DNA from: a virus
Virus record (IMG/VR): IMGVR_UViG_3300043425_000676
Location: 1-64,000 of that record
Direction: 5' to 3' (one strand)
DNA length: 64,000 nt
Shown here: piece after piece, positions 38,207 to 64,000 of the stretch
How the letters are laid out: every line of letters begins with the position of its first letter
How positions within the stretch are numbered: the stretch's first letter is position 1
Program-made: the position numbers and the translations under genes
Notes under the pieces: generated by a model
Seen by the model: the letters and a program-made list of their open reading frames with translations, nothing else
Databases searched by the model: none
Told to the model about the DNA's origin: nothing

Positions 38207-39577
38207 CTATTCAAACTGAAGCATATCGCTGCTTTTGCCGACTGCCGCATCGATTCGCGCACGAGCAAGCTCGATGTATTCGGCTTCGCGTTCAATTCCG
38301 ACGAACCGAAAACCTTCAAGAATAGCTGCCTTGCCTGTGGATCCTGAGCCGGTGAACGGATCGAGAACAAGTCCGTTTGGCGGCGTGACAAGTCGGCAAA
38401 GGTAACGCATCAGGTCGGTCGGCTTGACCGTGGGGTGGACGTTCTTGCGATTCGTGACAAATCTGCTAGTTACGTCATTTCCTGTATCCCACTCTGCGTT
38501 TTCGGGATTGCGCCTGCCGGACATAGACGACGATGCTTTCGAGTTAAAAGCATCCAAGCCTTCATCTCGGTCTTTCTTGCTTGCCTTCGCGCAATAGAAG
38601 AATCTGGCTGCGCTGCCGGAATCGCCTTCATGGAATCTTGGTGTGCCAAGCGTATTTGCCGCGCTGCCATAGATTTTGTTTTCCGTTCTTGGTTGGCCCG
38701 TAAGGCTTCCGCTTGTCGTCTCAGGAAACAACGCCAGCACCTCATCACTTCCATCGTGGATGAAGTTTGCAGGGAAACGGCCCAATTGCTCAGCCTTAGC
38801 AACCGCTTCATTGCCGCGAGCCTTGCAAGCCTCGATCGCTTCGCTGTCGTGTTTCCAAGGCCTGTCCCACCCCTCTGTGGTTGTGCTGATCCTGCCGCCG
38901 CCTAGCTTGTCCCCGTTCGCCTCCACCCTACACCCATCGATATTCAACCCGCCCGTTCCGTGGGCTAGCACATTCGCGGCGACTGTTGTGGGAAAAGGCT
39001 TACGAGCCAATATGATTGGCTCGTAAGCTGGTTTGAGTGCAGTTCCCCAACCTTGCCATTGTGTAGCTGCTTCGGTTGTCGGGATTGTTGTGTAAGCGTT
39101 CCTGCCGGATTCATCACCCCAAGTGCCACCACCGTCTCGTTTACCATCTTCAAGGCGTAGTAGGCGATCACCCCCTCGTTTGAGTGGGCCGACCTGCCGT
39201 TCCGCCCCAGCGGCCTTGTCAATCGCCTTGCTCACATCCAGCGATTTCGGAAAACCCGAGCCATATACCCACATGAGGCAGTCTCTAATCTCCCAACCAG
39301 CATCCTCAATGGCGCAGGCGAGTCGGTGGTACGTCCTCGTACCACCGAACGCCAGAAGATGCGCGCCCGGCTTTGCGACCCGCAAAGCCGCTTCCCAAAA
39401 CGGCATCCCAGGTACGCCGTGATCCCACTGTTTGCCCATAAAGGCCAACCCATAGGGCGGGTCGGTCACGATTGCGTCAACCGAACAGTCCGCAAAAGTT
39501 TTGAGTACGTCTAGGCAATCGCCATGGTGCAATGTGTAGCAATTCATCAAAATGTCCCGTGTAATTGCGCTACTCAA
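38207..39577 (-). CDS. DNA methyltransferase, beta class (N6-A/N4-C)
   Basis: VTDPPY, HPTVKP, LDPFTGSGSTG. Confidence 0.92.
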   Translation of the reverse strand: MSSAITRDILMNCYTLHHGDCLDVLKTFADCSVDAIVTDPPYGLAFMGKQWDHGVPGMPFWEAALRVAKPGAHLLAFGGTRTYHRLACAIEDAGWEIRDCLMWVYGSGFPKSLDVSKAIDKAAGAERQVGPLKRGGDRLLRLEDGKRDGGGTWGDESGRNAYTTIPTTEAATQWQGWGTALKPAYEPIILARKPFPTTVAANVLAHGTGGLNIDGCRVEANGDKLGGGRISTTTEGWDRPWKHDSEAIEACKARGNEAVAKAEQLGRFPANFIHDGSDEVLALFPETTSGSLTGQPRTENKIYGSAANTLGTPRFHEGDSGSAARFFYCAKASKKDRDEGLDAFNSKASSSMSGRRNPENAEWDTGNDVTSRFVTNRKNVHPTVKPTDLMRYLCRLVTPPNGLVLDPFTGSGSTGKAAILEGFRFVGIEREAEYIELARARIDAAVGKSSDMLQFE

Positions 39578-40742
39578 AAAGAACGTTTTGTTTCAATTTA
39601 TCAGCTTTTTGTACCGCCGAATCAATTCGATCGACAGCCAGCTTGATGTACTCTGGATTCAACTCAATGCCGACGTATTTTCTGCCATTCAAGATTGAAA
39701 CCTCGCCCGTGGTTCCGCTTCCGTTAAACGGATCGAGAATAACACCACCTTTGCGGGAGCCAGCAAGGACGCAAGGCTCAATTAGCGCAGGAGGAAATGT
39801 GGCAAAGTGAGCGCCTTTGTACGGTTTTGTGGTGACAGTCCAAACGGAGCGTTTGTTTCTGCCTTTTTCTAGGTCTACCGTCATGTCCCCAAAGTCGTTG
39901 TCGTAATTATGACCCTGCATACTTTCTTTGCTTCCTCCGCCGTTTTGAGCTCTTTTCCATCGGTATTTAGCTCGCTCGTGCGTTGCTTTGCTGCATGGCT
40001 CTTTGATCGCCTCATTGTCGAAGTAGTACCTTGCCGACTTGCTCAGCAAAAAAACGTACTCGTGAGATTTGGTACAGCGATCGGTGACGCTTTCAGGCAT
40101 TGGGTTGGGTTTGTGCCAGATGATGTCTTGGCGTAGATACCAACCATCGGCTTGCAAGGCAAAAGCAACGCGCCAAGGGATGCCAATGAGGTCTTTGGTT
40201 TTTAGCCCAACAGGAGTGCCGATCCGAGGAACGCTATTCTGAGCCTCGGGGTTGTTTGCGCCAACACCAGGGTTTGTGGATTGCTGGCGATCCGCTTTTG
40301 TGCCAGTGGCATAACTATCCCCAAGATTCAGCCACAGCGTCCCGTCGTCTCTAAGCACCCTCCGGACTTCACGAAACACCGAAACCAATTTAGCTACATA
40401 GGCATCCGGTGTCGGCTCTAAACCAATTTGACTATCAACCCTGATAGCACCGCACTTGCCGCACTTATCCTTGTACGGAATCCACAAAGCGTCTTTGTCC
40501 AGTCTGCCCTCAGAAGTTCGACTCCCACCATCGCAAGCGTTTGCAGCCTCAGCAAGATTGCGCCGTTGACGAATCTCTTTTTCTCGATGATCGCAACCAG
40601 GGTCGCCACCCTCCCACTTTGCCGTCCCGTAATCGCGCAAGCCGAAATACGGAGGCGACGTTACGCAACAATCAACCGCCCCTTGCTCCATCGATCGAAG
40701 CACAGACAAACAATCACCGCAATGCAATGTGTAAGGTTTCAT
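39570..40742 (-). CDS. DNA methyltransferase, beta class (likely N4-cytosine)
   Basis: VTSPPY, WHKPNPMPESVTDR, HFATFP, LDPFNGSGTTG. Confidence 0.92.
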   Translation of the reverse strand: MKPYTLHCGDCLSVLRSMEQGAVDCCVTSPPYFGLRDYGTAKWEGGDPGCDHREKEIRQRRNLAEAANACDGGSRTSEGRLDKDALWIPYKDKCGKCGAIRVDSQIGLEPTPDAYVAKLVSVFREVRRVLRDDGTLWLNLGDSYATGTKADRQQSTNPGVGANNPEAQNSVPRIGTPVGLKTKDLIGIPWRVAFALQADGWYLRQDIIWHKPNPMPESVTDRCTKSHEYVFLLSKSARYYFDNEAIKEPCSKATHERAKYRWKRAQNGGGSKESMQGHNYDNDFGDMTVDLEKGRNKRSVWTVTTKPYKGAHFATFPPALIEPCVLAGSRKGGVILDPFNGSGTTGEVSILNGRKYVGIELNPEYIKLAVDRIDSAVQKADKLKQNVLFE

Positions 40743-41058
40743 GCCAACAACCTACCATCATTGCCCCGATAACGCAAGTCAAAAATTGGAAGGGAAGCGA
40801 GGGGGTATACCGTGCCACGGCCCCGCGACGGGGCGGGGTCTGGATCGTTTTCCGGTGCGGTGCGGGTGTTCGTCGTCCGCGTCGGTTCCTTCGTCCGTCT
40901 CGCGTCGTCGTCCATCGCGCCACGTTTCAAGCTCGCGAAGCGTGACAAATAGGCTCATAGACTCGCGAAGCTCAGAAACATTAAGAAAACACCACAAAAA
41001 ACACCGCGTCAGACCATGCCACGTGGTCTATACCCGTGGCGACCTGCCGAATTGGCAC

Positions 41059-41754
41059 TTACCGCATCTCGGCAAGCAATCCGCGGATCTCATCGATTGC
41101 CATCCGTTCGCGGCGGATCGTCTCTCGCTCGTCTTCCACCGAGGCGGAAGCCTTCGCAGCCACATCAACGAATTTGCTGTATGCGCGGATCGAGGTTTCC
41201 AGCCAGCCAAGCGCTGACCAACTCGGTGCCGGCTGAAGCGCTCTGGACAGGTCTACGATTGTGAGCCCATCGACCGTCCTCGTGACGCTGAGTCTATTTG
41301 CTTGCACCCATTGGATTTCATGCGCAAGGCTGCTATTCGCGGGCAGTGTGGGCCAGTCCGCCGGGATCGCGTCGAGACCGACCACTCCGGCGTCCTGATT
41401 GCGCGCCCGCGCCTGCGACTCGTCAACCGATTGGACAGGCTCGGCGTGGTGCTCGCCGCTAACGGCTTCGCCCCCCACCTGACTTTCCCGTTGTTCTTCC
41501 ATCGGCGGTTGTGCCGCTGCGATTGCTCGCTTTGCTTCGTCAATCTCCGCTTGCGTCAATGGTGGGTAGAGCGTTTCCAGTTGGCGGTACGTCGTCTCTT
41601 GCGCCTCGTGCTTACTCAGCCCGATGCTTCGAGCCTCCTTCATCAGCCTATCGCGGTCGGTCATGGCTTGCAGCCATCGCCCTTCCGCTCGCAGTCGCGT
41701 CACCACTCGTGACTTCATCGCATCGAGGTCGCTTCCGCTGTCGTTTTCCGCCAT
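41059..41754 (-). CDS. Helical hypothetical protein, candidate terminase small subunit
   Basis: 231 aa helical protein next to a GC-rich non-coding tract; no TerS next to terL; function is an inference. Confidence 0.35.
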   Translation of the reverse strand: MAENDSGSDLDAMKSRVVTRLRAEGRWLQAMTDRDRLMKEARSIGLSKHEAQETTYRQLETLYPPLTQAEIDEAKRAIAAAQPPMEEQRESQVGGEAVSGEHHAEPVQSVDESQARARNQDAGVVGLDAIPADWPTLPANSSLAHEIQWVQANRLSVTRTVDGLTIVDLSRALQPAPSWSALGWLETSIRAYSKFVDVAAKASASVEDERETIRRERMAIDEIRGLLAEMR

Positions 41755-42079
41755 CGTTCGCTCGTTTCTGTGTCTGGTCAGCGCACAAGGATCCCGGGGT
41801 AACCGCTGGTTATTTATCGACGCCGCAACCGAGTCTCCCGACTCCCGAACAACACCATCCAGTGTAGCCCCTCGCGTCTAGCCAGCAGTGTAGGCGTCAG
41901 CCTGCTCACTGGCGGATTGGTCTAGCTCCGGCTAGTCCACTCGGCAACGTCTCGGCCTGTGCTTCCGCCTTGGGCGCTCGGTGACGCTGCATACCGATCA
42001 ATCTGCCCACCACCTTACCGACCGATCTGGCCACCGTCAAGAAATTCCAAAATATTTTGCTATTTGGGGTTGATTCTAC

Positions 42080-42108
42080 TTGTCGATATGCTCTCCATGG
42101 AGTAGAGT
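42080..42108 (+). promoter_or_regulatory. Putative sigma70-like early promoter
   Basis: TTGTCG-17 nt-TAGAGT at the strand-divergence point, followed by hairpin GGGGC-ATCGT-GCCCC near the expected start site. Confidence 0.45.
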
Positions 42109-42170
42109 ACCCATGGGGGCATCGTGCCCCGCAGTAGTGAGACACTGTTTTTTCTAGGAGATTTCTGATT

Positions 42171-42602
42171 ATGGCGAATTTTGATTCCGATCCGCGTGAT
42201 TTTGCTCTGGAAATGGTCGAAAACGAGGTAGTTTCGGCAGACCATTTATTGCTTTGCTGCCTCAAGTACATGAGCGCCGACGAACTTTCACCGCGTTTTG
42301 CTTGCGACGAGCCAGACCTTTGCATTGATTGCGGCGGTTCTCACATTGAGGAGGGCACCTGCCTGGGTTGCCAGCTCGCCGAGTGGCTAGACACCTTCGA
42401 TGATTCAGAATACGACGTTTCCGCCATGCGTGACGATGTTTCTACCAACAATCTCGAAGTGGGAGACGATGACGCGGCGGAAAAATACCGCCATGAAAAC
42501 ATCGTTCGCGAGTCGATTGTCAATGGCAACTACACCCAAGCCAAAGAGCAGTGCCAACGCTTCGGGCTCGACTACGAGGCGATCCTAAGCGAATGCAACT
42601 AG
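42171..42602 (+). CDS. Very acidic early protein with Cys knuckle
   Basis: SD AGGAGA; D/E-rich; CIDCGG...CLGC. Confidence 0.65.
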   Translation: MANFDSDPRDFALEMVENEVVSADHLLLCCLKYMSADELSPRFACDEPDLCIDCGGSHIEEGTCLGCQLAEWLDTFDDSEYDVSAMRDDVSTNNLEVGDDDAAEKYRHENIVRESIVNGNYTQAKEQCQRFGLDYEAILSECN

Positions 42603-42649
42603 ACTCGGGGGGGTTAGGCCGAGTGCGGAGGGGTTCGCCCCTCGTCCCC
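42603..42649 (+). ncRNA. Pistol-ribozyme-like core lacking P1 (copy 1)
   Basis: ACTCGG-G-GGGG-TTAGG-CCGAGT-GCG-GAGGGG-TTCG-CCCCTC-GT-CCCC. Confidence 0.7.
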
Positions 42650-42693
42650 GCTGTCGCGTGACAGCAAGCAACAACGAAACAGGAGAAACGACG

Positions 42694-42912
42694 ATGCCAA
42701 AGACCATCGACCAAACCAATCCAATCGAGCGCAATATCCGCGAAGCAATCGCCAGGATGAAGCGATCTAAGACTACTGGCGCCTCCATGGATTGCCTTTT
42801 CTTGAACACTCGTACTGCTGGCGTGACCGTGCCGGTCGGCATGTACCGTGCCGAGTTTGAGAAGCTCGCCCATCGCGTGGCAAGGGATCTGGCGTTCGAT
42901 CTTTACTGCTAG
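42694..42912 (+). CDS. Hypothetical early protein
   Basis: SD CAGGAGA; MPKTIDQ... Confidence 0.6.
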   Translation: MPKTIDQTNPIERNIREAIARMKRSKTTGASMDCLFLNTRTAGVTVPVGMYRAEFEKLAHRVARDLAFDLYC

Positions 42913-42953
42913 CAGGGGTTAGGGCTAGTGCGGCGCCTTCGGGCGCGTCCCCT
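42908..42953 (+). ncRNA. Pistol-ribozyme-like core lacking P1 (copy 2)
   Basis: GCTAGC-A-GGGG-TTAGG-GCTAGT-GCG-GCGCC-TTCG-GGCGC-GT-CCCC-T; stems covary with copy 1. Confidence 0.7.
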
Positions 42954-43019
42954 CGTCGACACTGTGTCGGCGGATCACCGCAGGCGTGAGACCCTGCCAA
43001 GCTTTCAGGAGAATTGACC

Positions 43020-43478
43020 GTGAAGACTGTATTTGAGACAAGATTTGCCAAAGTCGGCGAGACAGAGGAACACTACGGCGGAGTACGTTCAGCCCGAGTC
43101 GGCGGAGTCGATGACGCGAAGGAATTTGCGAGAAAGCACCTCGTACCGTATTTTGCCGACAAATGCGATGCAGAGGAATTTTTGATTGTCACCCTAGATA
43201 CCCAACACCGCCCAATTCGGATTGTCCGCGTTACTCGCGGGACGGTGAACGCAAGCCTAGTCCACCCCCGAGAAGTGTTCCGTCCAGCTATTGCCGACTG
43301 TGCGGCTGCGATGTTTCTGGTTCACAATCACCCATCTGGCGATCCGACCCCTAGTCAAGAAGATCGAGCGGTTACACGGCGTCTCAAGGACGCTGCCGCG
43401 ATCATTGGTATATCGATCCTAGATCACCTGATCGTCGGAGACACCATCGTCTCACTGGCTGAATACGGCTGGTTTTAG
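43020..43478 (+). CDS. RadC-like JAB/MPN domain protein
   Basis: E...GTVNASLVHPREVFR...HNHPSGDPTPSQED...LDHLIVG. Confidence 0.92.
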   Translation: MKTVFETRFAKVGETEEHYGGVRSARVGGVDDAKEFARKHLVPYFADKCDAEEFLIVTLDTQHRPIRIVRVTRGTVNASLVHPREVFRPAIADCAAAMFLVHNHPSGDPTPSQEDRAVTRRLKDAAAIIGISILDHLIVGDTIVSLAEYGWF

Positions 43479-43489
43479 TCCCTGTTCTC

Positions 43490-43581
43490 CCGCAAGTCTC
43501 GGCACACTTGCGGCAAAGTCTCACGAGTGCCGACGCGGTTGGCCGATGCGATATTCGGCTGTTTTTTCCACCAACACGAGA
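43490..43581 (+). ncRNA. Full-topology pistol-like ribozyme with extended P3
   Basis: P1 CCGCAAGT/ACTTGCGG; pseudoknot TCGGCA/TGCCGA; CAAAG linker; P2 TCTC/GAGA; ACGAG loop; GCG; P3 GTTGG/CCAAC. Confidence 0.55.
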
Positions 43582-43597
43582 ACAGGAGACTCGAAAA

Positions 43598-44221
43598 ATG
43601 CTCAAAGTTACACCAGCAGGCGATAACGCCAAGCTAGGCTCAGGAGTCGGAACAACCTACCGCCCAGTGGGAATTACATGCCCAAACACCTGCCCGCTAT
43701 TGGGTAACGGTTGCTACGCCCAACGCGGAAACGTCGCAATCCACGCGGCTAGATCGAAGAACGATAATCACGATTTGATGAAGCTCGCGGCAAACACGCT
43801 GGTTCGCCACCTAGTCTCGGGCGATTGGCTCAAGGCTACCAAGAACGGGCGCAAGATCCTTGACCGCGTATTTGTTCGCGCTGTTATCGCCCTACACCAA
43901 AAGTGCCCCTGGCTCACGGGATGGGGATACACTCACGCGGCGACCGCATGGCAGGCAGCAGGCATCACGCCGGCAGACCTGCCCAGTAATTTACACATCC
44001 TCGCATCATGCGACACGGCAGAGCAGAAAGCCACCCACAACGCCAACGGATGGAGGACAGCCCGAGTTATCGACGAACTGGCAGATAGGCAACCCGACGA
44101 GTTTGTGTGCCCAGTGGATGCAGCCAAGCGGAAGGGCATTCCAGCGGATCGCAGAACCAATTGCGCAAGATGCAAGGCTTGTTTTGCCACCGATCGTAAC
44201 ATTGCTTTTTTGAAGTTTTAA
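43598..44221 (+). CDS. Cys-rich phage protein (Gp88-like, radical-SAM-related)
   Basis: TCPNTCPLLGNGCYA, RHLVSGD, WGYTH, VCP...NCARCKAC. Confidence 0.65.
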   Translation: MLKVTPAGDNAKLGSGVGTTYRPVGITCPNTCPLLGNGCYAQRGNVAIHAARSKNDNHDLMKLAANTLVRHLVSGDWLKATKNGRKILDRVFVRAVIALHQKCPWLTGWGYTHAATAWQAAGITPADLPSNLHILASCDTAEQKATHNANGWRTARVIDELADRQPDEFVCPVDAAKRKGIPADRRTNCARCKACFATDRNIAFLKF

Positions 44222-44238
44222 CCAAGGAGATTCTGACA

Positions 44239-44658
44239 ATGGAAATTAACCTAGAACAAAGACTGTACGTCATTCCATCCGGCAAGGGCTACTCGTGCTT
44301 GGGGTTTGACGTATGCGAACAGCGCAGAGTGTCTTATATGCAATGGCTTGGACTGCCCGTACAACCCGTAGAAATTGGCACGCATCACGCTTATGCGGAA
44401 TACCAACGCGCCTTGGAACTGGTGCGAATACGGTGTAACTCTCCCGGTGTTAGATGCACAGTCGAATTGGTACCTGAGTTAGTGCGGTACGAACGTCGTC
44501 GAGTCGAGGTTACTTACCCCGATGGCACGAAGACCCGCTTTATTGTTGGGGTGTCGACTGGATTTATTCCAGTTCATCTTGAAATCAAGACGCGACGATC
44601 TACCGGCGGAAGTCAAGCGTACTTCCCGCCTGGATCAACAGTACGGCTGGTGGGTTAA
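44239..44658 (+). CDS. Hypothetical early protein
   Basis: SD AAGGAG; RFIVGVSTGFIPVHLEIKTRRSTGG motif. Confidence 0.65.
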   Translation: MEINLEQRLYVIPSGKGYSCLGFDVCEQRRVSYMQWLGLPVQPVEIGTHHAYAEYQRALELVRIRCNSPGVRCTVELVPELVRYERRRVEVTYPDGTKTRFIVGVSTGFIPVHLEIKTRRSTGGSQAYFPPGSTVRLVG

Positions 44659-44663
44659 AGCAA

Positions 44664-44722
44664 GACGTTTCGCGCACGAGACCACTGGCTTGCTAGTGGT
44701 CGACTGCCTGCAGCGTCGCAGG
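44664..44722 (+). ncRNA. Unclassified pseudoknot motif (copy A)
   Basis: GACGTT...stem...CCTGC-AGCGTC-GCAGG; matches 45218-45274 with covariation. Confidence 0.6.
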
Positions 44723-44753
44723 GTATTCAAGGCTTTTAATGGAGATTTGTGTT

Positions 44754-44933
44754 ATGAAGGTGACAATCGAAAACAATGAGTTGGTTATTTGCATACCCGT
44801 TGAGAACCCTCCACGACCAAGTGCAAGCGGTAAGACCCTCATCGTAGCCACGAGCAGCGGAAATCAAACCACGGACGCAATTGTCAATGGTCAATCTGTG
44901 GTGGTCGGACTGAACGCATACATTAAGAGGTAA
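44754..44933 (+). CDS. Small beta protein (SxSGKTLIVAT family), paralogue 1
   Basis: 59 aa; 45/59 identical to 47701-47880. Confidence 0.75.
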   Translation: MKVTIENNELVICIPVENPPRPSASGKTLIVATSSGNQTTDAIVNGQSVVVGLNAYIKR

Positions 44934-44935
44934 GC

Positions 44936-45217
44936 ATGAAATACTTCATTGAGCGAACTATTGGTGCTCATTCCGACACACTCGAAAAGCTCTGGGAAGG
45001 TAATGATTTACCTTTGTTCAGCCGCAATGGACATCCGTATTGCTTCAGTTGCTACAGAGAAGCTCAAAGAGTGCTCTGGAGACTTCAAGCACGATACCCC
45101 GTAACGATCGATACTCCTAGATCACCATCTGTGCCAATTGATTATTCCTTGGAAAGCATAGACACATCGGCAGCTCAAGAGTACAGACCGCAACAACACT
45201 TAGGCATGTTTGTTTAA
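44936..45217 (+). CDS. Hypothetical protein
   Basis: 93 aa ORF. Confidence 0.5.
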   Translation: MKYFIERTIGAHSDTLEKLWEGNDLPLFSRNGHPYCFSCYREAQRVLWRLQARYPVTIDTPRSPSVPIDYSLESIDTSAAQEYRPQQHLGMFV

Positions 45218-45274
45218 GACGTTTTGCGCCTGAGGGGGCTCGCCCGAACCCCTAACGGCCTGCAACGTCGCAGG
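45218..45274 (+). ncRNA. Unclassified pseudoknot motif (copy B)
   Basis: GACGTT...stem...CCTGC-AACGTC-GCAGG, starting right after the TAA stop. Confidence 0.6.
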
Positions 45275-45301
45275 AACACAACACAACAGGAGAACAGAAC
45301 G

Positions 45302-45706
45302 ATGGCAGATCGATTTTACGGCACAGTTTATTTGGGTGGGAAGCTAACTCAAGAGCAGTTCAAGAAGTGCGAGGAATTGCTAGAGGATTGCTTGGAACAC
45401 GGCGACGAGCTAAACGAGGATGGTTCAGCGTCATTTTCCGAATGCACTAGCAGCGACTTCCAAGGCATCGTCGAGTATTGCACATCCAACGGTATCGCCT
45501 TGTCCTTGCATTGGGACGCCAAGTGGGAACAAGAAGCAAACGTGGAATACTGGATGGACGGCGAATACAAGCAGTTTTTCGCGGCTGGTGATGGAGACAT
45601 CGCCATTAGGCTGGCGGAGCTGCAAGAGCACCCCGATATGACCATTGCCGAGTTTATCGCCAAGATGCAGATTCCCGAGTTCCCAACCTTCGAAATTGCT
45701 GACTGA
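45302..45706 (+). CDS. Acidic hypothetical protein
   Basis: SD CAGGAGA; MADRFYG... Confidence 0.65.
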   Translation: MADRFYGTVYLGGKLTQEQFKKCEELLEDCLEHGDELNEDGSASFSECTSSDFQGIVEYCTSNGIALSLHWDAKWEQEANVEYWMDGEYKQFFAAGDGDIAIRLAELQEHPDMTIAEFIAKMQIPEFPTFEIAD

Positions 45707-45806
45707 TGCGCGTCGGCGACTCGAACGCGAGGGGATTGCCCGATCCCTAAGCGCCCGAGCCCCTGGCAGTCAGGATCGGTAGCATCAAACACAGGAGACA
45801 TAAGCT

Positions 45807-46025
45807 ATGTATAAGCCTGGAACGTTTGTTCTTGACGGCGTTTCGTATGACCTAGCCTTTACGCGCCGACGCTACAGCAACACGACATTCACATGGGTAG
45901 CTGTCAAACTCAACGGAGAGTGGGTTGATCTAGGCGATCCATGGCAATGTATTACGCCAAAAAAGGCTGAGATTGAGGCAGGGTTGAGAATTGTTCTGGC
46001 TGCTAATTCAGTAGCCTTGGTTTAG
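45807..46025 (+). CDS. Hypothetical protein
   Basis: SD CAGGAGA; 72 aa. Confidence 0.6.
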   Translation: MYKPGTFVLDGVSYDLAFTRRRYSNTTFTWVAVKLNGEWVDLGDPWQCITPKKAEIEAGLRIVLAANSVALV

Positions 46026-46058
46026 TTTTTTTACACTTGCAAACAGGAGATTTGCGCA

Positions 46059-46487
46059 ATGTCTGAACAGTCCATCACACTGAAAACCGTCACGGCAACG
46101 CCGTTTAAGGATTGCAACTCGATGCTTACGCCTCGTCTGCAATTGGTTGTGCGGTACACGAAAGGCGGAACCAGCATTATGACGGGAGCCGAGTTTGTCC
46201 GAGGGTACGAGATCAGTATCCAGTACGACCGTCTTAGCGACGACGGATTTAGGCAGTTCTTGATTGATGGCAGAGGTAATCCGACCGAAACACTGGAGCA
46301 AGCCTCAAGATTCTCCGCCAAAGCGCTCGATAGGCTGGCAGGCGAGATCCGCAGCGGGAAGCATAACGCAACCATTGCGCACCTTTACGCACTGGCAAGA
46401 GCACGAAGACCAGAACACAACTGGCCGGAAGCAATCTTGCCGCTTGAACCCGAGAAGAAGCCCTGCACGGCTCTGATCGTCGTTTAA
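46059..46487 (+). CDS. Hypothetical protein
   Basis: SD CAGGAGA; 142 aa. Confidence 0.6.
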   Translation: MSEQSITLKTVTATPFKDCNSMLTPRLQLVVRYTKGGTSIMTGAEFVRGYEISIQYDRLSDDGFRQFLIDGRGNPTETLEQASRFSAKALDRLAGEIRSGKHNATIAHLYALARARRPEHNWPEAILPLEPEKKPCTALIVV

Positions 46488-46512
46488 CACGGTAACAACA
46501 GGAGACTTTGAC

Positions 46513-46753
46513 GATGAAAATTGCAATTTATTGGAGTCACGTGAGAAATCGCTGGTACGAACGCATTGACGGCGTTTCGACACCTTTGCGGCACTCAATC
46601 TACTTGCCAACCAATCCAACCTACAAGCAGGTTGAAGACGCTCTGATCGAGCTGGCAAGCTACTACGGGGAGGATTTGCAACCGGGAGATGTCGATATCG
46701 ACTTGTCCGACGATGCGTCGGCAACTTGGGAAAGGACGGTGGTTTGTGCTTAG
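46513..46753 (+). CDS. Hypothetical protein
   Basis: SD CAGGAGA before MKIAIYW. Confidence 0.55.
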
Positions 46754-46946
46754 TTCGAGCGATCTTGAAGGATGGAGAGCAGAAGTAACCAGCACACTCA
46801 AAGCGGCTGAGCATTACGCTGAAAAAGCGATGGACGCCAAAGAGTGGGATAACGTTGTCTTTATGCTTCGCCGAGCGCATGACAAAGCGCTAAGAATCCA
46901 AGACAGGTTGGAAATGTCGGCAAAAACTGCCAATGACACCAAATAG
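46746..46946 (+). CDS. Small helical protein
   Basis: GTG start overlapping the upstream gene end. Confidence 0.45.
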   Translation: MLSSSDLEGWRAEVTSTLKAAEHYAEKAMDAKEWDNVVFMLRRAHDKALRIQDRLEMSAKTANDTK

Positions 46947-46973
46947 TTTTTTTATTACAAGGAGGGAAAGACC

Positions 46974-47120
46974 ATGGCAAAATGGATGCTGCTGATTATC
47001 GTTGGCTTGTGCGGTTGTGCAGGTCAACGAACCAGGGTTACATTGACGCGGGTTCACGGTGAGCCTGCAATTAGTATTGAATTTGAAGACGCAAAGGAGA
47101 TTTGCAATGCGAATAGGTAG
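46974..47120 (+). CDS. Small putative lipoprotein (48 aa)
   Basis: SD AAGGAGG; MAKWMLLIIVGLCG-C lipobox-like signal. Confidence 0.55.
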   Translation: MAKWMLLIIVGLCGCAGQRTRVTLTRVHGEPAISIEFEDAKEICNANR

Positions 47121-58414: not shown

Positions 58415-61400
58415 TTATTTTTGATTCAATTTTTGCGTAATTTGACGCAATCTTTCGACCAAAGCGTCCTTCATCACAAGTGCCTGACCCTTGCGCTCGT
58501 ACAGGGTTTTGTTGTTCCTGCGCCAATATGCCAGCAGTAGCAGCCTTGCCTCTTCTGGCCCGATCTTGCCGTCGATCATGGTCTTAAGTGCCTTGTCTCT
58601 CTCGGCAACAGCTTTGGCGTAGGTCGTATCGTCCTGGAAGTCCTTGCGTTTTGGATTGGCTGAAGCAGAGTAGACCAGCGATTGTTTGCGTTGCTCTCGG
58701 CGTTGCTTGAATCGCTCAAGTTCATCCTTGGTCAAGAAGTCCTTGTAGCCTGGATCCTTCGAGTCCCATTCCATCGCTTCGAGATCCTTCTCGATCAGCT
58801 TTTTGCGTTCCTCTGCGTTGGCGTTCTTGTACTTGGTCTTAGGCCCATAGGTTCCACCACTCATCCCGAGAATGTTTAGCATGGCGATCGCTGGGCCTTC
58901 TGGCACACCACGAGCCATCAGCGTTTCAACGACTTCCCGTCCAGCCAGAGGGATGAACAGTCCCGTGGTAGCCGTGGCTACCGTTGCTTTGTTGCCAACA
59001 ACATCTTCTCCAGCAATGATGTTGATGCCAGCGGCGGGGATCGGTGCGAGTTTCTTGCGGATAAAGTTGGCTGTCAGATCGAACGTACTATCCTGACCGT
59101 ACTTCTTCTTCTCTCCCCGAATGTCAATAATTTCGCCTTCCATCGTCTTTTTCTGCCCAAGTCCAACTTGAGAAAGGAATGTGACGATTTGACCAAAGCC
59201 GGACAGTGGATCGATTCGCGTCTCTCCAATCTTGAGTTTCATGAAGTCCGTCGATCGCGGATCCAGTTCGACGGTTGGCGATTCCTCATCATCGTCGTCG
59301 TACAGCAATCCTCCGAGTGCCACGGCGGTTGCTAAGAATCCGGCAACACCAAGGGCGTGTCGAGCGTATTCCATGGCGATGAGCCGCTTAACCCTGCCGG
59401 AAACCTTGGCATCCTGAAGCATGTAGAACGGCAACCCTAGATATGCGAAGCGAGACGCGAGGTATCTAGGTGCGAACAAGACGGTGCTGAGGTTTGCCGC
59501 GACCTTGTTATAACTCCCGAAGTCCCCTCTACCTGTCGATACGTTGATAAAATTGGCAATCGCCTTGGCTTCGTCCAGCGTCACCTGACCGTTTGCCCCG
59601 AGGGTATCGACGAAATAGGTAAACAGCCGGAACCGCAAGCCGTTGAGGTAGGTCGTGTAAGCCCTGGCGGACATTGCCACGGGTGTCAAAACCGCCTTGC
59701 TGAACTTGTTGATCTTTGTGCCCTTCTTGCCGATGCCGTCCCTTGCCCATCGACCCATGTAGGCTTCTTCTTGGTTCTGGATCCTGCCAGCACTAGCCGT
59801 AACCTCAAGTTTGGCTTGTACCGCAAACGAATAGAGCCGGTGCTTGCTCATCTGTTCGGCGATATTAAACTCTTCCTCTTGGCTGAAGATAGCCCGTCGC
59901 ATTTCCTTTGCAGCCTCTCTGGCAAGCATTGGGTGAGCGAACGTCCCTGGGCCGCCCTGGCGGAACACCGCCGACAAGTCCATGGATGTCATAATCGCTC
60001 TTGCCAGGAATGAAGTCTCCCGAGCCCAGTCGAAGACCCTCTCTTTGGGGCTCAACTGCGACAATCGCCATTCTGCCGCCAGGCGGAAGAACTCCTCTTT
60101 TATTTCCTCAAGTCGCCTCTTGTGCTTGGTTATCTCGTCGCTTTCGAGTGGGGCTTTCTTGGGTTTTGCTCCAAAGTAGCCGTGCGCCATGCGATCTTCG
60201 TAATCCGCAATCCTGTTTTTCAGGTTGGCGATATAAGCTACCTCTGCTCGCTCTTGAGGGCTCATCTTGGGGTTCTGTTGTGCCTTAATCGCGTCTCTCT
60301 GAGCACGCAACGATTCGAGCTCTGCTTGCTTGGCTTTGAGTTCTGCGCTCGTTACGGGCTCAGCACGACCTCTAGGGGAGAAATCTCCGGTGCGGAGTTG
60401 TTCCGTAACCCTTTCGATCTCCCGATCGGTAGCCCTGAGAGCTGCTGCAAGCCGTTGCTCCTTGGTCGCTCCCTGCCGAGGAAACATCTCGCGGTAGTCT
60501 TTGGTGACTTCCGCTAGGATTCGCTTTTGCTCAGCCAAATCCTTGTCTTTGCTTGCCAAATCGACCTGCGTCTTGGTGATCGGCTTGCCTTCAGCCATAG
60601 CCTTCCGCAAATCCCTGATGCGGTTTGCCGTTGCCCGCATTGCGGCACCAATTGATGTCTTCAGGAGTCCCTGTTCATCCTCGGTGTAAAGGTTACTATT
60701 GCGCTTCATCTCGTTGACTTGTCGCACTAACGCTCGCTCATCGTCGGACATTTCGCGACGCTCGACACCCGTTGCCTTGGGTCGAATACCGGCTTCCAAA
60801 TCCTTGATCTTCGCCATTTGGAGCAACTGACCGTTGATGTCGCGTTGCAATCGCTTGTTTGCGTCTGGAGAAAGCGGGGTAAATTGCCCATATCCGGTCA
60901 GCGCGTCCATTGTCTGCCGCTCGGTGATCTCCGGGTCGATCTCCTGGAGCGATCTCCAGACGGCATCTAGGACGACTTCAACGCGATCTTCTTGATCCGC
61001 CGTGACGATTCCGCTTTCAATAATCGCCATCTCGATCTCACGGGCGATACGGGTAAGCCCCTCAACATCCCCAGGGCTGACCATCGGAATCGGGATTTCA
61101 CCTTGCGCCTTGATCTTCTCCCATGCCGTCGCAAACGCAGCCTGAGCCTGAACAGGCAGTTCGCCACCTATCTCTTTGCGCAAATTGGCTAGCAGTTCAC
61201 CGTAGGAGAATACGCCAGCTTCGACGTATGCCATGACGACACTCTCGGCTTCCTCAGCCATTCGTTCGTCTTCGGTCTGCATCAGCGTGTCAGAGCCACC
61301 CTTGGGCTTGAAGATGCTTGAGAACTTCTTGACGAAGCTCTGTACCGCCGTGGCGGCTTTTTGCCGTGGCTCGCTCTTGGTCTTGGTCTTGGGTGCTTTC

Positions 61401-64000
61401 TTCAAGTCATCGTCGACCACTTGTCGCACACCGTCTTGCCGTTGAAGGTCGGCAATCACCTGCTCGGCTTTCGCCAAGTCGCCCTGAACCTTCGCCAGTT
61501 CCGCAGCCAACTCAGCGATTTGCCTTGTCTGCTCTGCGCTAAGTCTCTCACCGCCGTTGGCAGCCCTGCCCCGACGCAACAACGCAGCACGAGAGAAATC
61601 CGATCGCAAGGTGATTTTCCTGGCTCCAAATGCCCTTGCTTGCAGGGTTCCGATCTTTTTGTCGACCTTCTCCATTTCCTCCATGGCATCCACTATCAGG
61701 TCAACTTCCCTGAGTGCCTTGGCTGCGGCAACGCTGTCTTTTCGGTCTTTGGCTGCAAACAATCGATCTTCAGCGGCTTCGCGAGCGTTTTCCAGCCCCC
61801 GGTAGTGCATTTGCAAAACAGCTACTTCAATCTGGTCTGGGGATCTCAGTTTGTCGTCCAGTTCTTTAACGAGTCGATCGCCGAGGGTAGGATCCTGTCT
61901 GAGCCTGTGCCCAGCTTCCTCCAGCCACTCATCCATTGTCTCGGATTCTGCATCCACCAGCCCTGGCGACCCTCGAAGCAGAGCCATGTAGTTCGCCACT
62001 TCGTTTTGGATGCTCGTCACTGGATTTGCAGGACGCAAGACGGGCTCGCCCCTGGAAACAGGCTCGCCGCCCTTGCCGCCACGCTGGTCGGCTGGCAACC
62101 CTCGCTGAACCAACTTGTCGAACAGATCGCGGATTTCCTTGGGGAGAGGCGTTCCGGTGATCTCTTGCACACCGCTGTAGATTTCTCGCATCCAACGGGA
62201 GATCTTTTGGAACAGCGAATCCAGGACGCTATTCGGGGAGTCACCCTCGTACCAATACTGCTCCCACATCTTGGCGGCTTTTTCTTCCGCCTTCACATCC
62301 CACTTCGTTACCCATTTGCCATTCACAAAGCTTCCAGCACCGCTCGCCTTCTCTAACGCTTCGATTTCCTCATCGGTGATGTCGGCACGCTTTTCGGCTG
62401 GCACGCTCTTGTCGAGCAGGAACAGTCGCATCGGATGGAAGAACTCGTGGATGAACGTCGAGAAGTCAGCCTTGTTTGTGGCTCCGATCAGTGCTCGATG
62501 TGCGCTGATGAACTTCGTCCAGCCCTTGACGCTGCCGCCTTGCTGTTGGTTCTGCATCAAGATGTTCGGGTTGTTCGGGTCGAACATGCCGCGATTGCCG
62601 GTGGCGGACTTGATTTGGGTTGGGCGTAACGCCACCCACACATCCTTCCCTACGCCTCCAACACCTTTGAATCGCTCGTCTTGAACTCCGTCAAAGCCAG
62701 CCTCTTCAAGCTTCTCAATGACAGCATTATTAAATTCCACCCTGTCTTCAATGCCTAAACTTACTACTTCTCTTCGGGCAGCAGCCAGATCCTTCAAGCT
62801 AGCTGGGTTTTTGACACTCAAGTAGAACGGTCTTGTTTTACCAAGAGCTAGTGCGCCAGATTCTTCAGAAGTAAACCAAAAACCCGGAGATACACTGTAA
62901 TTTGCGTCGAATACATCAAACTCTTTATCTGTTCCGTGGTAAACAACCAGAGGTTTTCCGTCCTTGTCCACCACCTTGCTATCGCCAAACCATCGCACAA
63001 AATTCTGCCATGTCGGCTTGCCGTTTGGAGCGATCTTTTCGCCCCACTTGTCTCGAGCGTATGACACGACTGCAGGGCGATAGTCGCTCTCGTTGAACTT
63101 GTATCCTGACGGTTGATCGAAATCTTCTTGTGCCATCGCCTGCCCAGGCACCGGCGTACCATACGGAGCAAACCCGATCTCATTGCGACCGAATGCCGTG
63201 ATGTCTTCGAGCGTAATTCCAGCCTCGATCTGATCATCGGACAGCACCCTACCGAACGCCCTCTTTGCCATCGTGACAACTTGGTCGCGTGTGATGCCCG
63301 AGACTGCTGCCGCCTGCTGCACACCATCCATGCCTGCGACTTCTGCCGCTAAGCGAAGGAAACGGCTCACCTGCAACGTGCGCTCGCGTCCAATGGTCTT
63401 GACCGAGTAGGCAACGAAGTCACGTAGATTGGTGATTCCAGCGTCCTGAGCGGCGATGGAGAGGTTCAACGCCTCCGACCACATATTCTCGTTTACGTCT
63501 GGTGCGGTCTGGTAAAGCGGGGGCGGTAGATTGCGCAGGTTGTCTGAAAGCTCGGCTTGATTCTTTTCGTCATTAGCAGCTTTAGCTTCAACGTATATAG
63601 GTTCTCCTTCCTCGTTCAGAACCTTGCTAGCCTCAATCGCTACAGATTCGCCGTTTTCTTCGTACAAAACGTGCGTGTCAGATCTATAGCCAGTAACAGC
63701 ATGTTCCTCGATGTCATAAGAAACATTTTCTTGCGCAGGCTCACCTGTCATTTGCTCCTTAAACATCTCTGCTTGCATGTCATCAACAGCCTGCCTACCT
63801 GAAGCACGCTTGCGCTTTCGAATATAAATTGAAGTACCGACTGGGGCTATATTCCTAAACCAAGACGGAGAGCCCTCTGGGTTTGCCTCGATCTCTGCGA
63901 CAAGCGACTTGAGTTTCTTCTGCTTTATATCAAGCTGCTCCTGTCGCACAAACGGAAGCTTTGCAGACTCATTAGCCGACTTAACAAACGCCTGCTTTTT
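58415..64000 (-). CDS. C-terminal part of a giant polyvalent ejection protein containing an ADP-ribosyltransferase-like (ART-PolyVal) domain and a HExxH motif
   Basis: Frame open to the window end; NFVRWFGDSKVVDKDGKPLVVYHGT...GFDGV...QIKSATGNRGMFDP; ADFSTFIHEFFH; long helical C-terminus. Confidence 0.85.
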   Translation of the reverse strand, partial: KKQAFVKSANESAKLPFVRQEQLDIKQKKLKSLVAEIEANPEGSPSWFRNIAPVGTSIYIRKRKRASGRQAVDDMQAEMFKEQMTGEPAQENVSYDIEEHAVTGYRSDTHVLYEENGESVAIEASKVLNEEGEPIYVEAKAANDEKNQAELSDNLRNLPPPLYQTAPDVNENMWSEALNLSIAAQDAGITNLRDFVAYSVKTIGRERTLQVSRFLRLAAEVAGMDGVQQAAAVSGITRDQVVTMAKRAFGRVLSDDQIEAGITLEDITAFGRNEIGFAPYGTPVPGQAMAQEDFDQPSGYKFNESDYRPAVVSYARDKWGEKIAPNGKPTWQNFVRWFGDSKVVDKDGKPLVVYHGTDKEFDVFDANYSVSPGFWFTSEESGALALGKTRPFYLSVKNPASLKDLAAARREVVSLGIEDRVEFNNAVIEKLEEAGFDGVQDERFKGVGGVGKDVWVALRPTQIKSATGNRGMFDPNNPNILMQNQQQGGSVKGWTKFISAHRALIGATNKADFSTFIHEFFHPMRLFLLDKSVPAEKRADITDEEIEALEKASGAGSFVNGKWVTKWDVKAEEKAAKMWEQYWYEGDSPNSVLDSLFQKISRWMREIYSGVQEITGTPLPKEIRDLFDKLVQRGLPADQRGGKGGEPVSRGEPVLRPANPVTSIQNEVANYMALLRGSPGLVDAESETMDEWLEEAGHRLRQDPTLGDRLVKELDDKLRSPDQIEVAVLQMHYRGLENAREAAEDRLFAAKDRKDSVAAAKALREVDLIVDAMEEMEKVDKKIGTLQARAFGARKITLRSDFSRAALLRRGRAANGGERLSAEQTRQIAELAAELAKVQGDLAKAEQVIADLQRQDGVRQVVDDDLKKAPKTKTKSEPRQKAATAVQSFVKKFSSIFKPKGGSDTLMQTEDERMAEEAESVVMAYVEAGVFSYGELLANLRKEIGGELPVQAQAAFATAWEKIKAQGEIPIPMVSPGDVEGLTRIAREIEMAIIESGIVTADQEDRVEVVLDAVWRSLQEIDPEITERQTMDALTGYGQFTPLSPDANKRLQRDINGQLLQMAKIKDLEAGIRPKATGVERREMSDDERALVRQVNEMKRNSNLYTEDEQGLLKTSIGAAMRATANRIRDLRKAMAEGKPITKTQVDLASKDKDLAEQKRILAEVTKDYREMFPRQGATKEQRLAAALRATDREIERVTEQLRTGDFSPRGRAEPVTSAELKAKQAELESLRAQRDAIKAQQNPKMSPQERAEVAYIANLKNRIADYEDRMAHGYFGAKPKKAPLESDEITKHKRRLEEIKEEFFRLAAEWRLSQLSPKERVFDWARETSFLARAIMTSMDLSAVFRQGGPGTFAHPMLAREAAKEMRRAIFSQEEEFNIAEQMSKHRLYSFAVQAKLEVTASAGRIQNQEEAYMGRWARDGIGKKGTKINKFSKAVLTPVAMSARAYTTYLNGLRFRLFTYFVDTLGANGQVTLDEAKAIANFINVSTGRGDFGSYNKVAANLSTVLFAPRYLASRFAYLGLPFYMLQDAKVSGRVKRLIAMEYARHALGVAGFLATAVALGGLLYDDDDEESPTVELDPRSTDFMKLKIGETRIDPLSGFGQIVTFLSQVGLGQKKTMEGEIIDIRGEKKKYGQDSTFDLTANFIRKKLAPIPAAGINIIAGEDVVGNKATVATATTGLFIPLAGREVVETLMARGVPEGPAIAMLNILGMSGGTYGPKTKYKNANAEERKKLIEKDLEAMEWDSKDPGYKDFLTKDELERFKQRREQRKQSLVYSASANPKRKDFQDDTTYAKAVAERDKALKTMIDGKIGPEEARLLLLAYWRRNNKTLYERKGQALVMKDALVERLRQITQKLNQK

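What the first reader, a model, noticed from the sequence alone, without database searches (positions are those of the whole stretch)
43481..43590. Third, full-topology pistol-like RNA with an alternative helix that hides the next SD
Seen: P1 43490-97/43506-13; loop TCGGCA pairing with TGCCGA (43528-33); CAAAG linker; P2 TCTC/GAGA; ACGAG loop; (C)GCG; P3 GTTGG/CCAAC with a 28-nt insert; AC at the cleavage position. Separately, CCTGTTCTC (43481-89) is complementary to GAGAACAGG (43578-86), which overlaps P2' and the SD. Inference: ribozyme fold and SD sequestration are mutually exclusive, coupling cleavage to translation of the Gp88-like gene. Deviations from typical pistols are the 8-nt P1 loop, an extra C before GCG, and AC instead of GU.
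Basis: partly seen in the sequence, partly recalled or inferred. Interest (0 to 1): 0.7.

Follow-up and report, generated by a model that had tools for sequence, protein, structure and literature searches.

The report
Pseudoknot-plus-terminator RNA, not a pistol ribozyme
The stretch after a phage RadC-like gene holds a real, conserved RNA pseudoknot joined to a terminator-like hairpin and a helix that covers the next gene's ribosome-binding site, but it does not pass the tests for a pistol ribozyme.

Summary
Three parts get support from relatives.

- **P1 and pseudoknot:** the 8-bp P1 and its loop pseudoknot (7 bp, not 6) keep pairing through compensatory changes.
- **"28-nt insert":** it is a terminator-like hairpin plus U-run. 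With the bases before it, it forms a 26-nt core that is nearly invariant across divergent phage contigs.
- **SD-covering helix:** the 9-bp helix is rarer than chance (P about 0.0005).

The pistol-specific parts fail.

- **P2 and the P3 3' strand:** they belong to the 5' leader of the next gene. In relative L002 they lie about 1.1 kb from the element.
- **P3-P2 junction:** it is not held at 2 nt in relatives.
- **Internal loop:** the conserved pistol loop bases are missing.
- **Model scores:** Rfam Pistol gives no hit at E <= 10. A model built from the phage's own pistol-like motifs gives none either.

Best reading: an undescribed phage RNA module at the RadC 3' end. It is an H-type pseudoknot joined to a conserved terminator-like hairpin, enclosed by an anti-SD helix.

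In passing: two true pistol-like motifs without a P1 hairpin lie upstream, at 42601-42649 and 42906-42952, with strong covariation.

The parts
43014..43478 (+). RadC-like JAB-domain gene whose stop codon (43476-43478) lies 2 nt before the element
   Evidence: Pfam RadC, E 1.4e-40. The ORF is listed.
43481..43489 (+). 5' strand of the long-range helix. It overlaps the pyrimidine anti-SD pentamer at 43486-43490.
   Evidence: Perfect 9-nt complement to 43578-86. P about 0.0005. The pentamer directly 5' of P1 is invariant in the 6 aligned copies and is present in L357.
43490..43497 (+). P1, 5' strand
   Evidence: 8 bp with 43506-13. 3 of the 8 pairs change on both sides among 6 copies, and none is broken. 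L357 has a third version.
43499..43505 (+). Pseudoknot 5' strand, inside the P1 loop
   Evidence: 7 bp with 43527-33. 2 pairs change on both sides and 1 changes to a wobble pair.
43506..43513 (+). P1, 3' strand
43514..43526 (+). Loop 3 of the pseudoknot.
   Evidence: A 7-nt stretch is conserved in the RadC-linked copies only. It is absent from the distant copies, where loop 3 can be as short as 5 nt.
43527..43533 (+). Pseudoknot 3' strand, abutting the conserved core
43534..43559 (+). Nearly invariant core: a 7-nt single strand (CGCGGUU), one variable base, then a 5-bp stem with a conserved 8-nt loop
   Evidence: Same block in 12 non-identical copies from divergent contigs. The variable sites are the base before the stem and two loop positions, and L526 has a 7-nt loop.
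43540..43567 (+). Terminator-like hairpin (7 pairs with wobbles) plus a run of six U
   Evidence: Flagged. The hairpin folds at -9.6 kcal/mol. A U-run is present in 9 of 12 copies.
43571..43581 (+). Here they are read as part of the leader of the next gene.
   Evidence: The same bases precede the DUF7227 gene in L002, about 1.1 kb from the element.
43578..43589 (+). 3' strand of the long-range helix (43578-86) and the Shine-Dalgarno GGAGA (43585-89)
   Evidence: stereotyped AGGAGA sites in this gene cluster.
43598..44221 (+). Downstream gene, DUF7227 family
   Evidence: Pfam DUF7227, E 6.2e-12.

Best explanation
This is an RNA module at the 3' end of the phage RadC-like gene, transcribed from the + strand.

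Anatomy:
- An 8-bp hairpin whose loop pairs with a strand 13 nt further on. This makes a compact H-type pseudoknot: stem 1 of 8 bp, a 1-nt loop, stem 2 of 7 bp, a 13-nt loop.
- The pseudoknot abuts a nearly invariant 26-nt core: a 7-nt single strand (CGCGGUU), one variable base, then a 5-bp stem with a conserved 8-nt loop.
- In most copies a U-run follows, so the core looks like an intrinsic terminator.
- In the RadC-linked copies the whole is enclosed by pairing between the bases 2-13 nt after the RadC stop codon and the Shine-Dalgarno region of the next gene.

Shown:
- The pseudoknot.
- The conserved core.
- One copy per phage record.
- Its position right after RadC in 7 related records.
- The non-random long-range helix.

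Inferred:
- It marks the end of a RadC transcript unit by partial termination or 3'-end formation.
- On read-through transcripts the next gene's ribosome-binding site stays covered unless a ribosome finishing RadC, whose footprint reaches the anti-SD strand, opens the helix (translational coupling).

It is not a pistol ribozyme. The role of the pseudoknot and of the conserved loop is not known.
For: Structure:
- P1, pseudoknot and hairpin pair in 126 of 126 cells over 6 copies. 5 pairs change on both sides. 0 of 500 shuffles reach the covariation score. Slid controls pair in 25-44% of cells.
- L357 gives a third P1 version (85.3 bits to model R1).
- L361, L362, L363 and L526 have unrelated P1 and pseudoknot sequences in the same layout, abutting the same core.
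- In all, 11 of 12 non-identical copies have the layout; L512 does not.
- A control at random positions gives this layout with a 6-nt or longer pseudoknot in 126 of 5000 cases, and with 7 nt in 45 of 5000.
- G-U pairs (UG:4, GU:6, UG:1) place the RNA on the + strand.

Core and terminator:
- The terminator-like site 43540-61 plus T-run is flagged.
- The core is conserved in contigs of 43-62% G+C.

Copy number and position:
- One copy in each of the 8 records that have it.
- None in G003 or G004, where RadC runs straight on to the next gene.
- The element starts 4-8 nt (anti-SD pentamer) after the RadC stop in the window, L002, L003, L270, L309 and L357 (read).

Long-range helix:
- P = 0.00045.
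- An anti-SD to SD pairing of 5-7 bp is possible in all 7 RadC-linked copies, with A-U to U-A exchange in the extension between L309 and L357 (read).
Against: - The U-run is poor in 3 of 12 copies (L361, L526, L512).
- The stem is short and only -9.6 kcal/mol, no better than shuffles (z = -0.9).
- A terminator does not explain why the loop sequence and the 7-nt strand before it are almost invariant.
- No sigma-70-like promoter was found downstream (0 in 41800-45300), so the following genes need read-through.
- The anti-SD feature is absent from the distant copies (L361-L363, read).
- In the window, the 9-bp helix and the shorter anti-SD to SD pairing seen in relatives use different registers.
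- There are only three independent sequence types among the RadC-linked copies.
Confidence: 0.55

Rival explanations
1. One reading: a pistol-class self-cleaving ribozyme. P1, pseudoknot, P2 (43519-22 with 43578-81) and P3 (43538-42 with 43571-75) with a 28-nt insert. It would cleave between 43576 and 43577 and compete with the SD-covering helix.
For: - All strands are present in the window with a 2-nt junction.
- P1 and the pseudoknot are real.
- A purine-G before the pseudoknot strand and GCG after it resemble the pistol core (Rfam consensus; residues named in review PMC6154101, passages).
- Harris 2015 says the junction bases vary, so AC is not disqualifying.
- Two true pistol-like motifs lie within 900 nt upstream, and ribozyme genes tend to cluster (PMC4604425 introduction, passage).
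- In L002, L003, L205 and L309 a 4-bp wobble-containing P3 plus a 2-nt junction plus GAGA can be drawn.
Against: - No Rfam Pistol match at E <= 10.
- No match to model R2 of the local pistol-like motifs with filters off.
- P2 pairs in 50% of aligned cells.
- In L002 the window's P3 3' and P2 3' strands lie about 1.1 kb away, in front of the DUF7227 gene.
- The junction is 0, 1, 2 or 7 nt depending on the copy and register, and L270 has only the 7-nt form.
- The P3 5' strand changes G to U in L357 and the distant copies, with no change opposite.
- In L526 loop 3 is 5 nt, which leaves no room for a P2 strand.
- The three loop bases that are upper-case in the Rfam consensus are not present.
- P3 would compete with the conserved hairpin for two G residues and would have to span a U-run terminator.
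Confidence: 0.06
2. The conserved core is the working centre of another kind of functional RNA, and the U-run is secondary. Candidates:
- A site bound by a phage or host protein, such as an antitermination or translational-operator site.
- A ligand-sensing attenuator.
- A new self-cleaving class.
For: - A near-invariant single strand and hairpin loop next to helices that vary freely is the pattern of ribozymes, riboswitches and protein-binding sites.
- It is single copy per genome.
- 3 of 12 copies lack a good U-run.
- It lies beside pistol-like motifs.
- No Rfam family matches it in three members tested.
- The three core bases CGC could pair with GCG in the hairpin loop (read; untestable because both are invariant).
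Against: - Neighbouring genes are not of one function, which is unlike a riboswitch.
- No conserved alternative (antiterminator) pairing was found. The window's repeated 5-mers that would allow one are not kept in the L003 type.
- No candidate binding protein was identified.
- Only 12 copies are known.
Confidence: 0.3
3. Chance complementarity in an ordinary intergenic spacer with a plain terminator. Under this reading the pseudoknot has no function.
For: - The hairpin-plus-loop-complement topology is common by chance: dozens of cases in the window, and 767 of 5000 random positions with 4 nt or more.
- The nested minimum-energy fold of 43479-43601 has z = -2.5 only.
Against: - Compensatory changes in 5 pairs with none broken.
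- The same layout built from unrelated sequences in distant copies.
- The core is conserved across contigs of very different G+C.
Confidence: 0.03

Closest known systems
Pistol self-cleaving ribozyme (Rfam RF02679)
   Same: - A hairpin whose loop forms a pseudoknot with a strand further 3'.
- An A-containing linker.
- Purine-G before the pseudoknot strand and GCG after it.
- A hairpin following.
- A phage intergenic setting.
   Different: - No conserved P2.
- No fixed 2-nt P3-P2 junction.
- The conserved first three bases of the internal loop are absent.
- There is an extra C before GCG.
- The hairpin after GCG is an invariant terminator-like stem-loop, not a freely covarying P3.
- There is no score to the Rfam model.
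The P1-less pistol-like motif of the same phages (window 42601-42649 and 42906-42952; model R2)
   Same: - Same operon and strand.
- A pseudoknot strand followed by one base and GCG-G.
- In the window type the pseudoknot strands share a 5-mer with that motif's commonest pseudoknot.
   Different: - That motif has P2, P3, the pistol internal loop and a GU junction, all kept in 26 of 26 copies.
- It occurs several times per genome.
- The finding has none of these features, is single copy, and does not score to R2.
Intrinsic (factor-independent) terminators
   Same: A G+C-rich stem-loop followed by a U-run at the end of a gene.
   Different: - The loop and the preceding strand are conserved in sequence across distant phages.
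- A pseudoknot abuts it.
- 3 of 12 copies lack the U-run.
Compact H-type mRNA pseudoknots, such as the T-even phage gene 32 leader pseudoknot and the pseudoknot aptamers of small riboswitches (preQ1-I, SAM-II). Recalled from memory, not tested here.
   Same: - Two stacked stems.
- A 1-nt first loop.
- A longer, A-containing last loop that can lie in the groove of stem 1.
- A position next to an expression signal.
   Different: - No sequence likeness.
- No Rfam hit.
- It lies in a 3' region after a gene rather than in a 5' leader.
- It is joined to an invariant hairpin.
Anti-SD helices that give translational coupling between adjacent genes (general mechanism, recalled)
   Same: A strand just after the upstream stop codon pairs with the downstream ribosome-binding region.
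   Different: The two strands are about 90 nt apart and enclose a pseudoknot and a terminator-like hairpin.

Membership tests
Pistol ribozyme (RF02679) | P1 hairpin whose loop forms a pseudoknot of about 6 bp with the strand between P2 and P3 | tested here: met
   P1 is 8 bp and the pseudoknot 7 bp. Both are kept through compensatory changes.
Pistol ribozyme (RF02679) | P2 helix joining the strand after the linker to the strand after the cleavage site | tested here: not met
   - Present in the window only as drawn.
- 50% of cells paired in 6 copies.
- In L002 the 3' strand is about 1.1 kb away.
- There is no room for it in L526.
Pistol ribozyme (RF02679) | P3 hairpin directly after GCG | tested here: not met
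   - It needs a 28-nt insert that is itself a conserved hairpin plus U-run.
- The 3' strand is gapped in 5 of 6 copies.
- The 5' strand changes G to U without compensation in L357 and the distant copies.
Pistol ribozyme (RF02679) | P3-P2 junction of exactly two nucleotides (length strictly conserved; Harris 2015, section 5) | tested here: not met
   It is 2 nt in the window. Other copies give 0, 1, 2 or 7 nt depending on register, and L270 gives only 7 nt.
Pistol ribozyme (RF02679) | Conserved core bases: the 5-nt internal loop and GCG after the pseudoknot (Rfam consensus; purine-32, G33, G40, C41, G42 in review PMC6154101) | tested here: not met
   - Purine-G and GCG are present.
- The first three loop bases differ (window and L003 type).
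- An extra C precedes GCG in all copies.
Pistol ribozyme (RF02679) | Score to the Rfam covariance model at or above 34.5 bits | tested here: not met
   No hit at gathering threshold in the window. None at E <= 10 on 43400-43680 or on 40000-47000.
Pistol ribozyme (RF02679) | Site-specific self-cleavage | not testable with these tools
   Needs a bench assay.
P1-less pistol-like motif of these phages (model R2 from 26 copies) | Match to model R2 | tested here: not met
   With filters off over the whole window, the two upstream copies score 68.8 and 59.7 bits. Nothing in 43481-43590 reaches E <= 10.
Intrinsic terminator | G+C-rich stem-loop followed at once by a U-run, at a gene end | tested here: met
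   - Site 43540-61 plus TTTTTT.
- -9.6 kcal/mol.
- A U-run in 9 of 12 copies.
Intrinsic terminator | Transcripts end there | not testable with these tools
H-type pseudoknot | Two helices in which the loop of the first pairs with a strand outside it, with both helices kept in relatives | tested here: met
   11 of 12 copies.
SD-sequestering helix / translational coupling | Non-random complementarity between a strand near the upstream stop codon and the downstream SD region, kept in relatives | tested here: inconclusive
   - Window: 9 bp, P = 0.00045.
- Relatives keep a 5-7 bp anti-SD to SD pairing in another register (read).
- The distant copies lack it.
- The effect on translation is not testable.

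The most novel reading that the evidence does not exclude
The near-invariant core (the 7-nt strand plus the hairpin with its fixed loop), held by a freely varying pseudoknot, could be the active centre of a new small functional RNA class. That could be a new self-cleaving ribozyme, or an RNA switch that sets read-through of the terminator. It sits next to pistol-variant ribozymes, as new ribozyme classes have been found before.
Probability: 0.12. Interest if true: 0.85.

Novelty: new variant of a known kind. Interest (0 to 1): 0.45.

Why it matters
The claim as written, a third pistol ribozyme that couples cleavage to translation, would have been a new regulatory use of a ribozyme. The evidence does not bear it out.

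What is there is still of some value.
- **New RNA motif:** a structured RNA motif that matched no Rfam 15 family in the three members tested. Its core strings appeared in none of the papers searched.
- **Conservation pattern:** helices that vary, and a strand and loop that do not. That pattern usually marks a specific molecular function.
- **Distribution:** it is single copy in phages of very different base composition.
- **RadC unit:** in the window's relatives it closes a RadC gene unit that opens with a pistol-like motif. This suggests that these phages cut and end their early transcripts gene by gene.

It gives a defined target for termination, probing and cleavage assays.

Tried and rejected
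**Searches that gave nothing**
- Rfam at gathering threshold over the window: nothing.
- The phage GenBank collection with 43000-44300: no match.

**Pattern scans that were mostly chance matches and were screened by script**
- 111 stretches, only the window's two relatives true.
- 62 stretches, 1 true.
- 82 stretches, 2 true.
- 120 rows, scan cut off, 0 true.
- 3 stretches, 1 true.
- 74 stretches, 2 new.
- The first motif scan of the window used a wrong spacing and was uninformative.

**Ideas considered and dropped**
- **P3 as the conserved hairpin, P2 from the A-rich linker and the U-run.** The linker is not A-rich in L003 or L309, and no common pairing exists (read).
- **Pseudoknot-type hammerhead.** It has the same topology as pistol (PMC11300833, passages), but I saw no hammerhead core motifs by eye and there was no Rfam hit.
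- **HDV-like fold.** The topology does not fit, and there was no Rfam hit.
- **Stop-codon read-through or frameshift signal.** The frame after the RadC stop is open for 56 codons in the window, but single-base indels between the window and L003 break it, and a terminator lies inside.
- **Attachment-site core copied from a host gene.** No bacterial genome among the species representatives holds the block, apart from one phage-like contig in a MAG.
- **Antiterminator by the repeated 5-mers of the window.** They are not kept in the L003 type.
- **The CAAC of the P3 3' strand as a common leader word.** 4 of 16 listed sites in the 42-49 kb cluster, against a 12% background and 5 of 60 sites overall. 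This is too weak to use.

**Step stopped**

Full report
**Setting.** The window is the first 64000 bases of a 72061-base IMG/VR virus record. The finding lies in the 119-nt spacer between two + strand genes. Upstream is a RadC-like JAB-domain gene (43014-43478; Pfam RadC, E 1.4e-40). Downstream is a DUF7227 gene starting at ATG 43598 (Pfam, E 6.2e-12). Both belong to a run of small + strand genes from about 42.1 to 49.6 kb with a stereotyped AGGAGA ribosome-binding site.

**Observation.** Three corrections apply.
- The loop-to-downstream pairing is 7 bp (43499-505 with 43527-33), not 6.
- The "28-nt insert" in P3 is a stem-loop followed by six T. The consensus scan flags it as terminator-like (43540-61, 7 pairs). 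It folds at -9.6 kcal/mol.
- The proposed P3 5' strand shares two G residues with that stem.

A hairpin with a 6-nt loop complement downstream is common by chance, with dozens of cases in the window. The topology alone therefore proves nothing.

**Rfam.**
- At gathering thresholds the window has no hit.
- With permissive filters on 43400-43680, the only match at E <= 10 is a chance terminator-like match to an sRNA family. Pistol is not listed.
- The only Pistol signal in the genome is a partial one: 20.3 bits against a cut-off of 34.5, covering model positions 24-68, at 42610-42649, about 870 nt upstream.

**Relatives of the element.** Protein and pattern searches found copies in related contigs.

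| Copy | Source |
|---|---|
| L002 | near-identical copy |
| L003, L205, L309, L270 | a second sequence type |
| L357 | a third type |

A covariance model of the element (R1) finds one copy in each of G000, G001 and G002. It finds none in G003 or G004. In those two records RadC is followed directly by the next gene.

- On the six-copy alignment, P1, the pseudoknot and the hairpin pair in all 126 cells.
- Three P1 pairs and two pseudoknot pairs change on both sides.
- None of 500 shuffles reaches the covariation score, and slid controls pair in 25-44% of cells.
- L357 adds further exchanges in P1.
- G-U pairs put the RNA on the + strand.

**A wider family.** Scanning for the hairpin alone brought in copies from quite different, A+T-richer contigs: L361, L362 and L363 (identical to L369), and later L526 and L512. 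All share a 26-nt block with the window: a 7-nt strand, one variable base, then a 5-bp stem with an 8-nt loop that varies at two positions (7 nt in L526). Upstream of the block, the sequences are unrelated to the window. Even so, four of the five again form a hairpin whose loop pairs with the bases abutting the block:

| Copy | P1 (bp) | Pseudoknot (bp) |
|---|---|---|
| L361 | 6 | 6 |
| L526 | 5 | 7 |
| L362 | 7 | 4 |
| L363 | 6 | 4 |
| L512 | none | none |

At random positions such a layout appears in 767 of 5000 cases for 4 nt or more, 126 of 5000 for 6 nt or more, and 45 of 5000 for 7 nt. The 4-bp cases are therefore weak on their own.

- In all, 11 of 12 non-identical copies have the layout.
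- The family is single copy in every record that has it, 8 of 8.
- Its neighbours have no common function.
- No Rfam family matches the window copy, L369 or L526.
- Its core strings occur in no paper of the library searched.
- No bacterial species representative carries the block, apart from one phage-like contig in a MAG.
- A U-run follows the hairpin in 9 of 12 copies.

**The pistol-specific parts.** The test is whether P2, P3 and the two-base junction are kept.
- **L002.** The element again follows RadC, but two genes are inserted after its U-run. These strands therefore belong to the leader of the downstream gene.
- **Alignment.** On the alignment P2 pairs in half of the cells. The P3 3' strand is gapped in five of six copies.
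- **Alignment-free search.** The arrangement "P3 strand, two bases, P2 strand" exists as drawn only in the window. L002, L003, L205 and L309 allow a 4-bp wobble-containing P3 that uses the ribosome-binding site as P2, with a junction of 0, 1 or 2 nt according to register. L270 allows only a 7-nt junction.
- **Junction length.** Harris et al. 2015 state that the junction bases vary but its length is strictly conserved (section 5 read).
- **P3 5' strand.** It changes G to U in L357 and in the distant copies, without a change opposite.
- **L526.** The loop between P1 and the pseudoknot strand is 5 nt, too short to hold a P2 strand and an internal loop.
- **Core bases.** Purine-G and GCG are present. 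The first three internal-loop bases, upper-case in the Rfam consensus, are not, and an extra C precedes GCG.
- **Local model.** A model built from the phage group's own pistol-like motifs (below) was run without filters over the whole window. It scores the two upstream copies at 68.8 and 59.7 bits and finds nothing in 43481-43590 at E <= 10.

I conclude that the element shares the P1-pseudoknot half of the pistol topology and a GCG. It is not a member of the family, and it has no conserved site for pistol-type cleavage.

**The SD-covering helix.**
- The 9-nt complement between 43481-89 and 43578-86 is reached in 9 of 20000 shuffles of the downstream segment, and in 6 of 9125 equally spaced control placements in the window.
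- In the RadC-linked relatives, the pentamer directly 5' of P1 is invariant and complementary to the GGAGA of the next gene.
- That pairing is extended by 1-2 A-U pairs in L003, L309 and L357, with an A-U to U-A exchange between L309 and L357 (read).
- The anti-SD pentamer starts 4-8 nt after the RadC stop codon in all of them. That is within the reach of a terminating ribosome (general knowledge).

I read it as ordinary masking of the ribosome-binding site, relieved by translation of RadC. It is not a partner in a ribozyme switch. The distant copies lack this feature.

**Mechanism.** My best account is a module that closes the RadC unit.
- A pseudoknot abuts a conserved terminator-like hairpin, which ends or attenuates transcription.
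- An outer helix keeps the next gene's start site covered on read-through RNA.

Three facts argue that termination is not the whole story. The loop and the 7-nt strand are almost invariant. Three copies lack a U-run. No promoter-like site follows, so the downstream genes need read-through. A specific protein- or ligand-dependent function of the core, or a new catalytic RNA, remains open.

**The neighbouring motifs.** The weak Pistol hit belongs to a 47-56-nt motif present twice in the window (42601-49 and 42906-52).
- My filter found 26 distinct copies in the loci held. The filter required the internal-loop motif, GCG, GU and a complementary P2.
- On their alignment all 364 cells pair, 11 of 14 pairs change on both sides, and 0 of 500 shuffles reach any measure. 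The pseudoknot and P3, which the filter did not require, carry 8 of those 11 pairs.
- The motif has the pistol P2, internal loop, pseudoknot strand, GCG, P3 and GU junction, but no P1 hairpin. The 5' pseudoknot strand lies one base before P2.
- In all seven RadC-linked records, one copy lies 517-567 nt upstream of the element, just before RadC (coordinates).
- A literature search for such variants found nothing relevant.

**Papers.** I read section 5 and passages of Harris 2015 (PMC4604425), and passages of reviews PMC6154101 and PMC11300833. The pistol discovery paper was not read, and supplements were closed.

Noticed in passing
window 42601-42649 and 42906-42952 (+): Two copies of a 47-49-nt pistol-like motif without a P1 hairpin.
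- Layout: 5-nt pseudoknot strand, 1-nt linker, P2, the pistol internal loop, pseudoknot strand, U, GCG, P3 hairpin, GU, P2.
- Rfam Pistol scores the first copy 20.3 bits, below the 34.5 cut-off.
- 26 distinct copies in related contigs pair in 364 of 364 cells, and 11 of 14 pairs change on both sides. My filter required the loop, GCG, GU and P2 complementarity.
- It looks like a new pistol variant, present several times per genome between early genes.
   Followed up: partly
window 42906-43570; L270, L309, L205, L357, L198, L200: In all 7 RadC-linked records the RadC gene is bracketed. The pistol-like motif lies just upstream, 517-567 nt before the element, and the pseudoknot-terminator element lies just downstream. 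L004 and L009 keep the upstream motif but lack the downstream element.
   Followed up: partly
L002 1888-3000 compared with window 43570-43598: Mosaic spacers. L002 has two extra genes (54 and 262 aa, no Pfam family) between the element and the DUF7227 gene. Leader segments with their ribosome-binding sites are exchanged between genes in these phages.
   Followed up: partly
window 41437-41478 (+): Weak partial match (11.2 bits, E 0.82) to the model of the pistol-like motif. It keeps the 5' strand and a covarying P2 but not the core. It may be a decayed copy or chance.
   Followed up: no
window 58415-64000 (-): A very long ORF of at least 1861 aa that runs off the window end. It has only weak matches to two PHROG families of unknown function. 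Its nature was not resolved.
   Followed up: partly
window 38207-40742 (-): Two adjacent ORFs (456 and 390 aa) whose translations show DPPY/SPPY-type motifs by eye, suggestive of DNA methyltransferases. This was not tested with a family search.
   Followed up: no
window 42130-42170 (+) and L002 700-745: The same leader cassette precedes different genes in the window and in L002. It consists of a short hairpin, a T-run and AGGAGAT.
   Followed up: no
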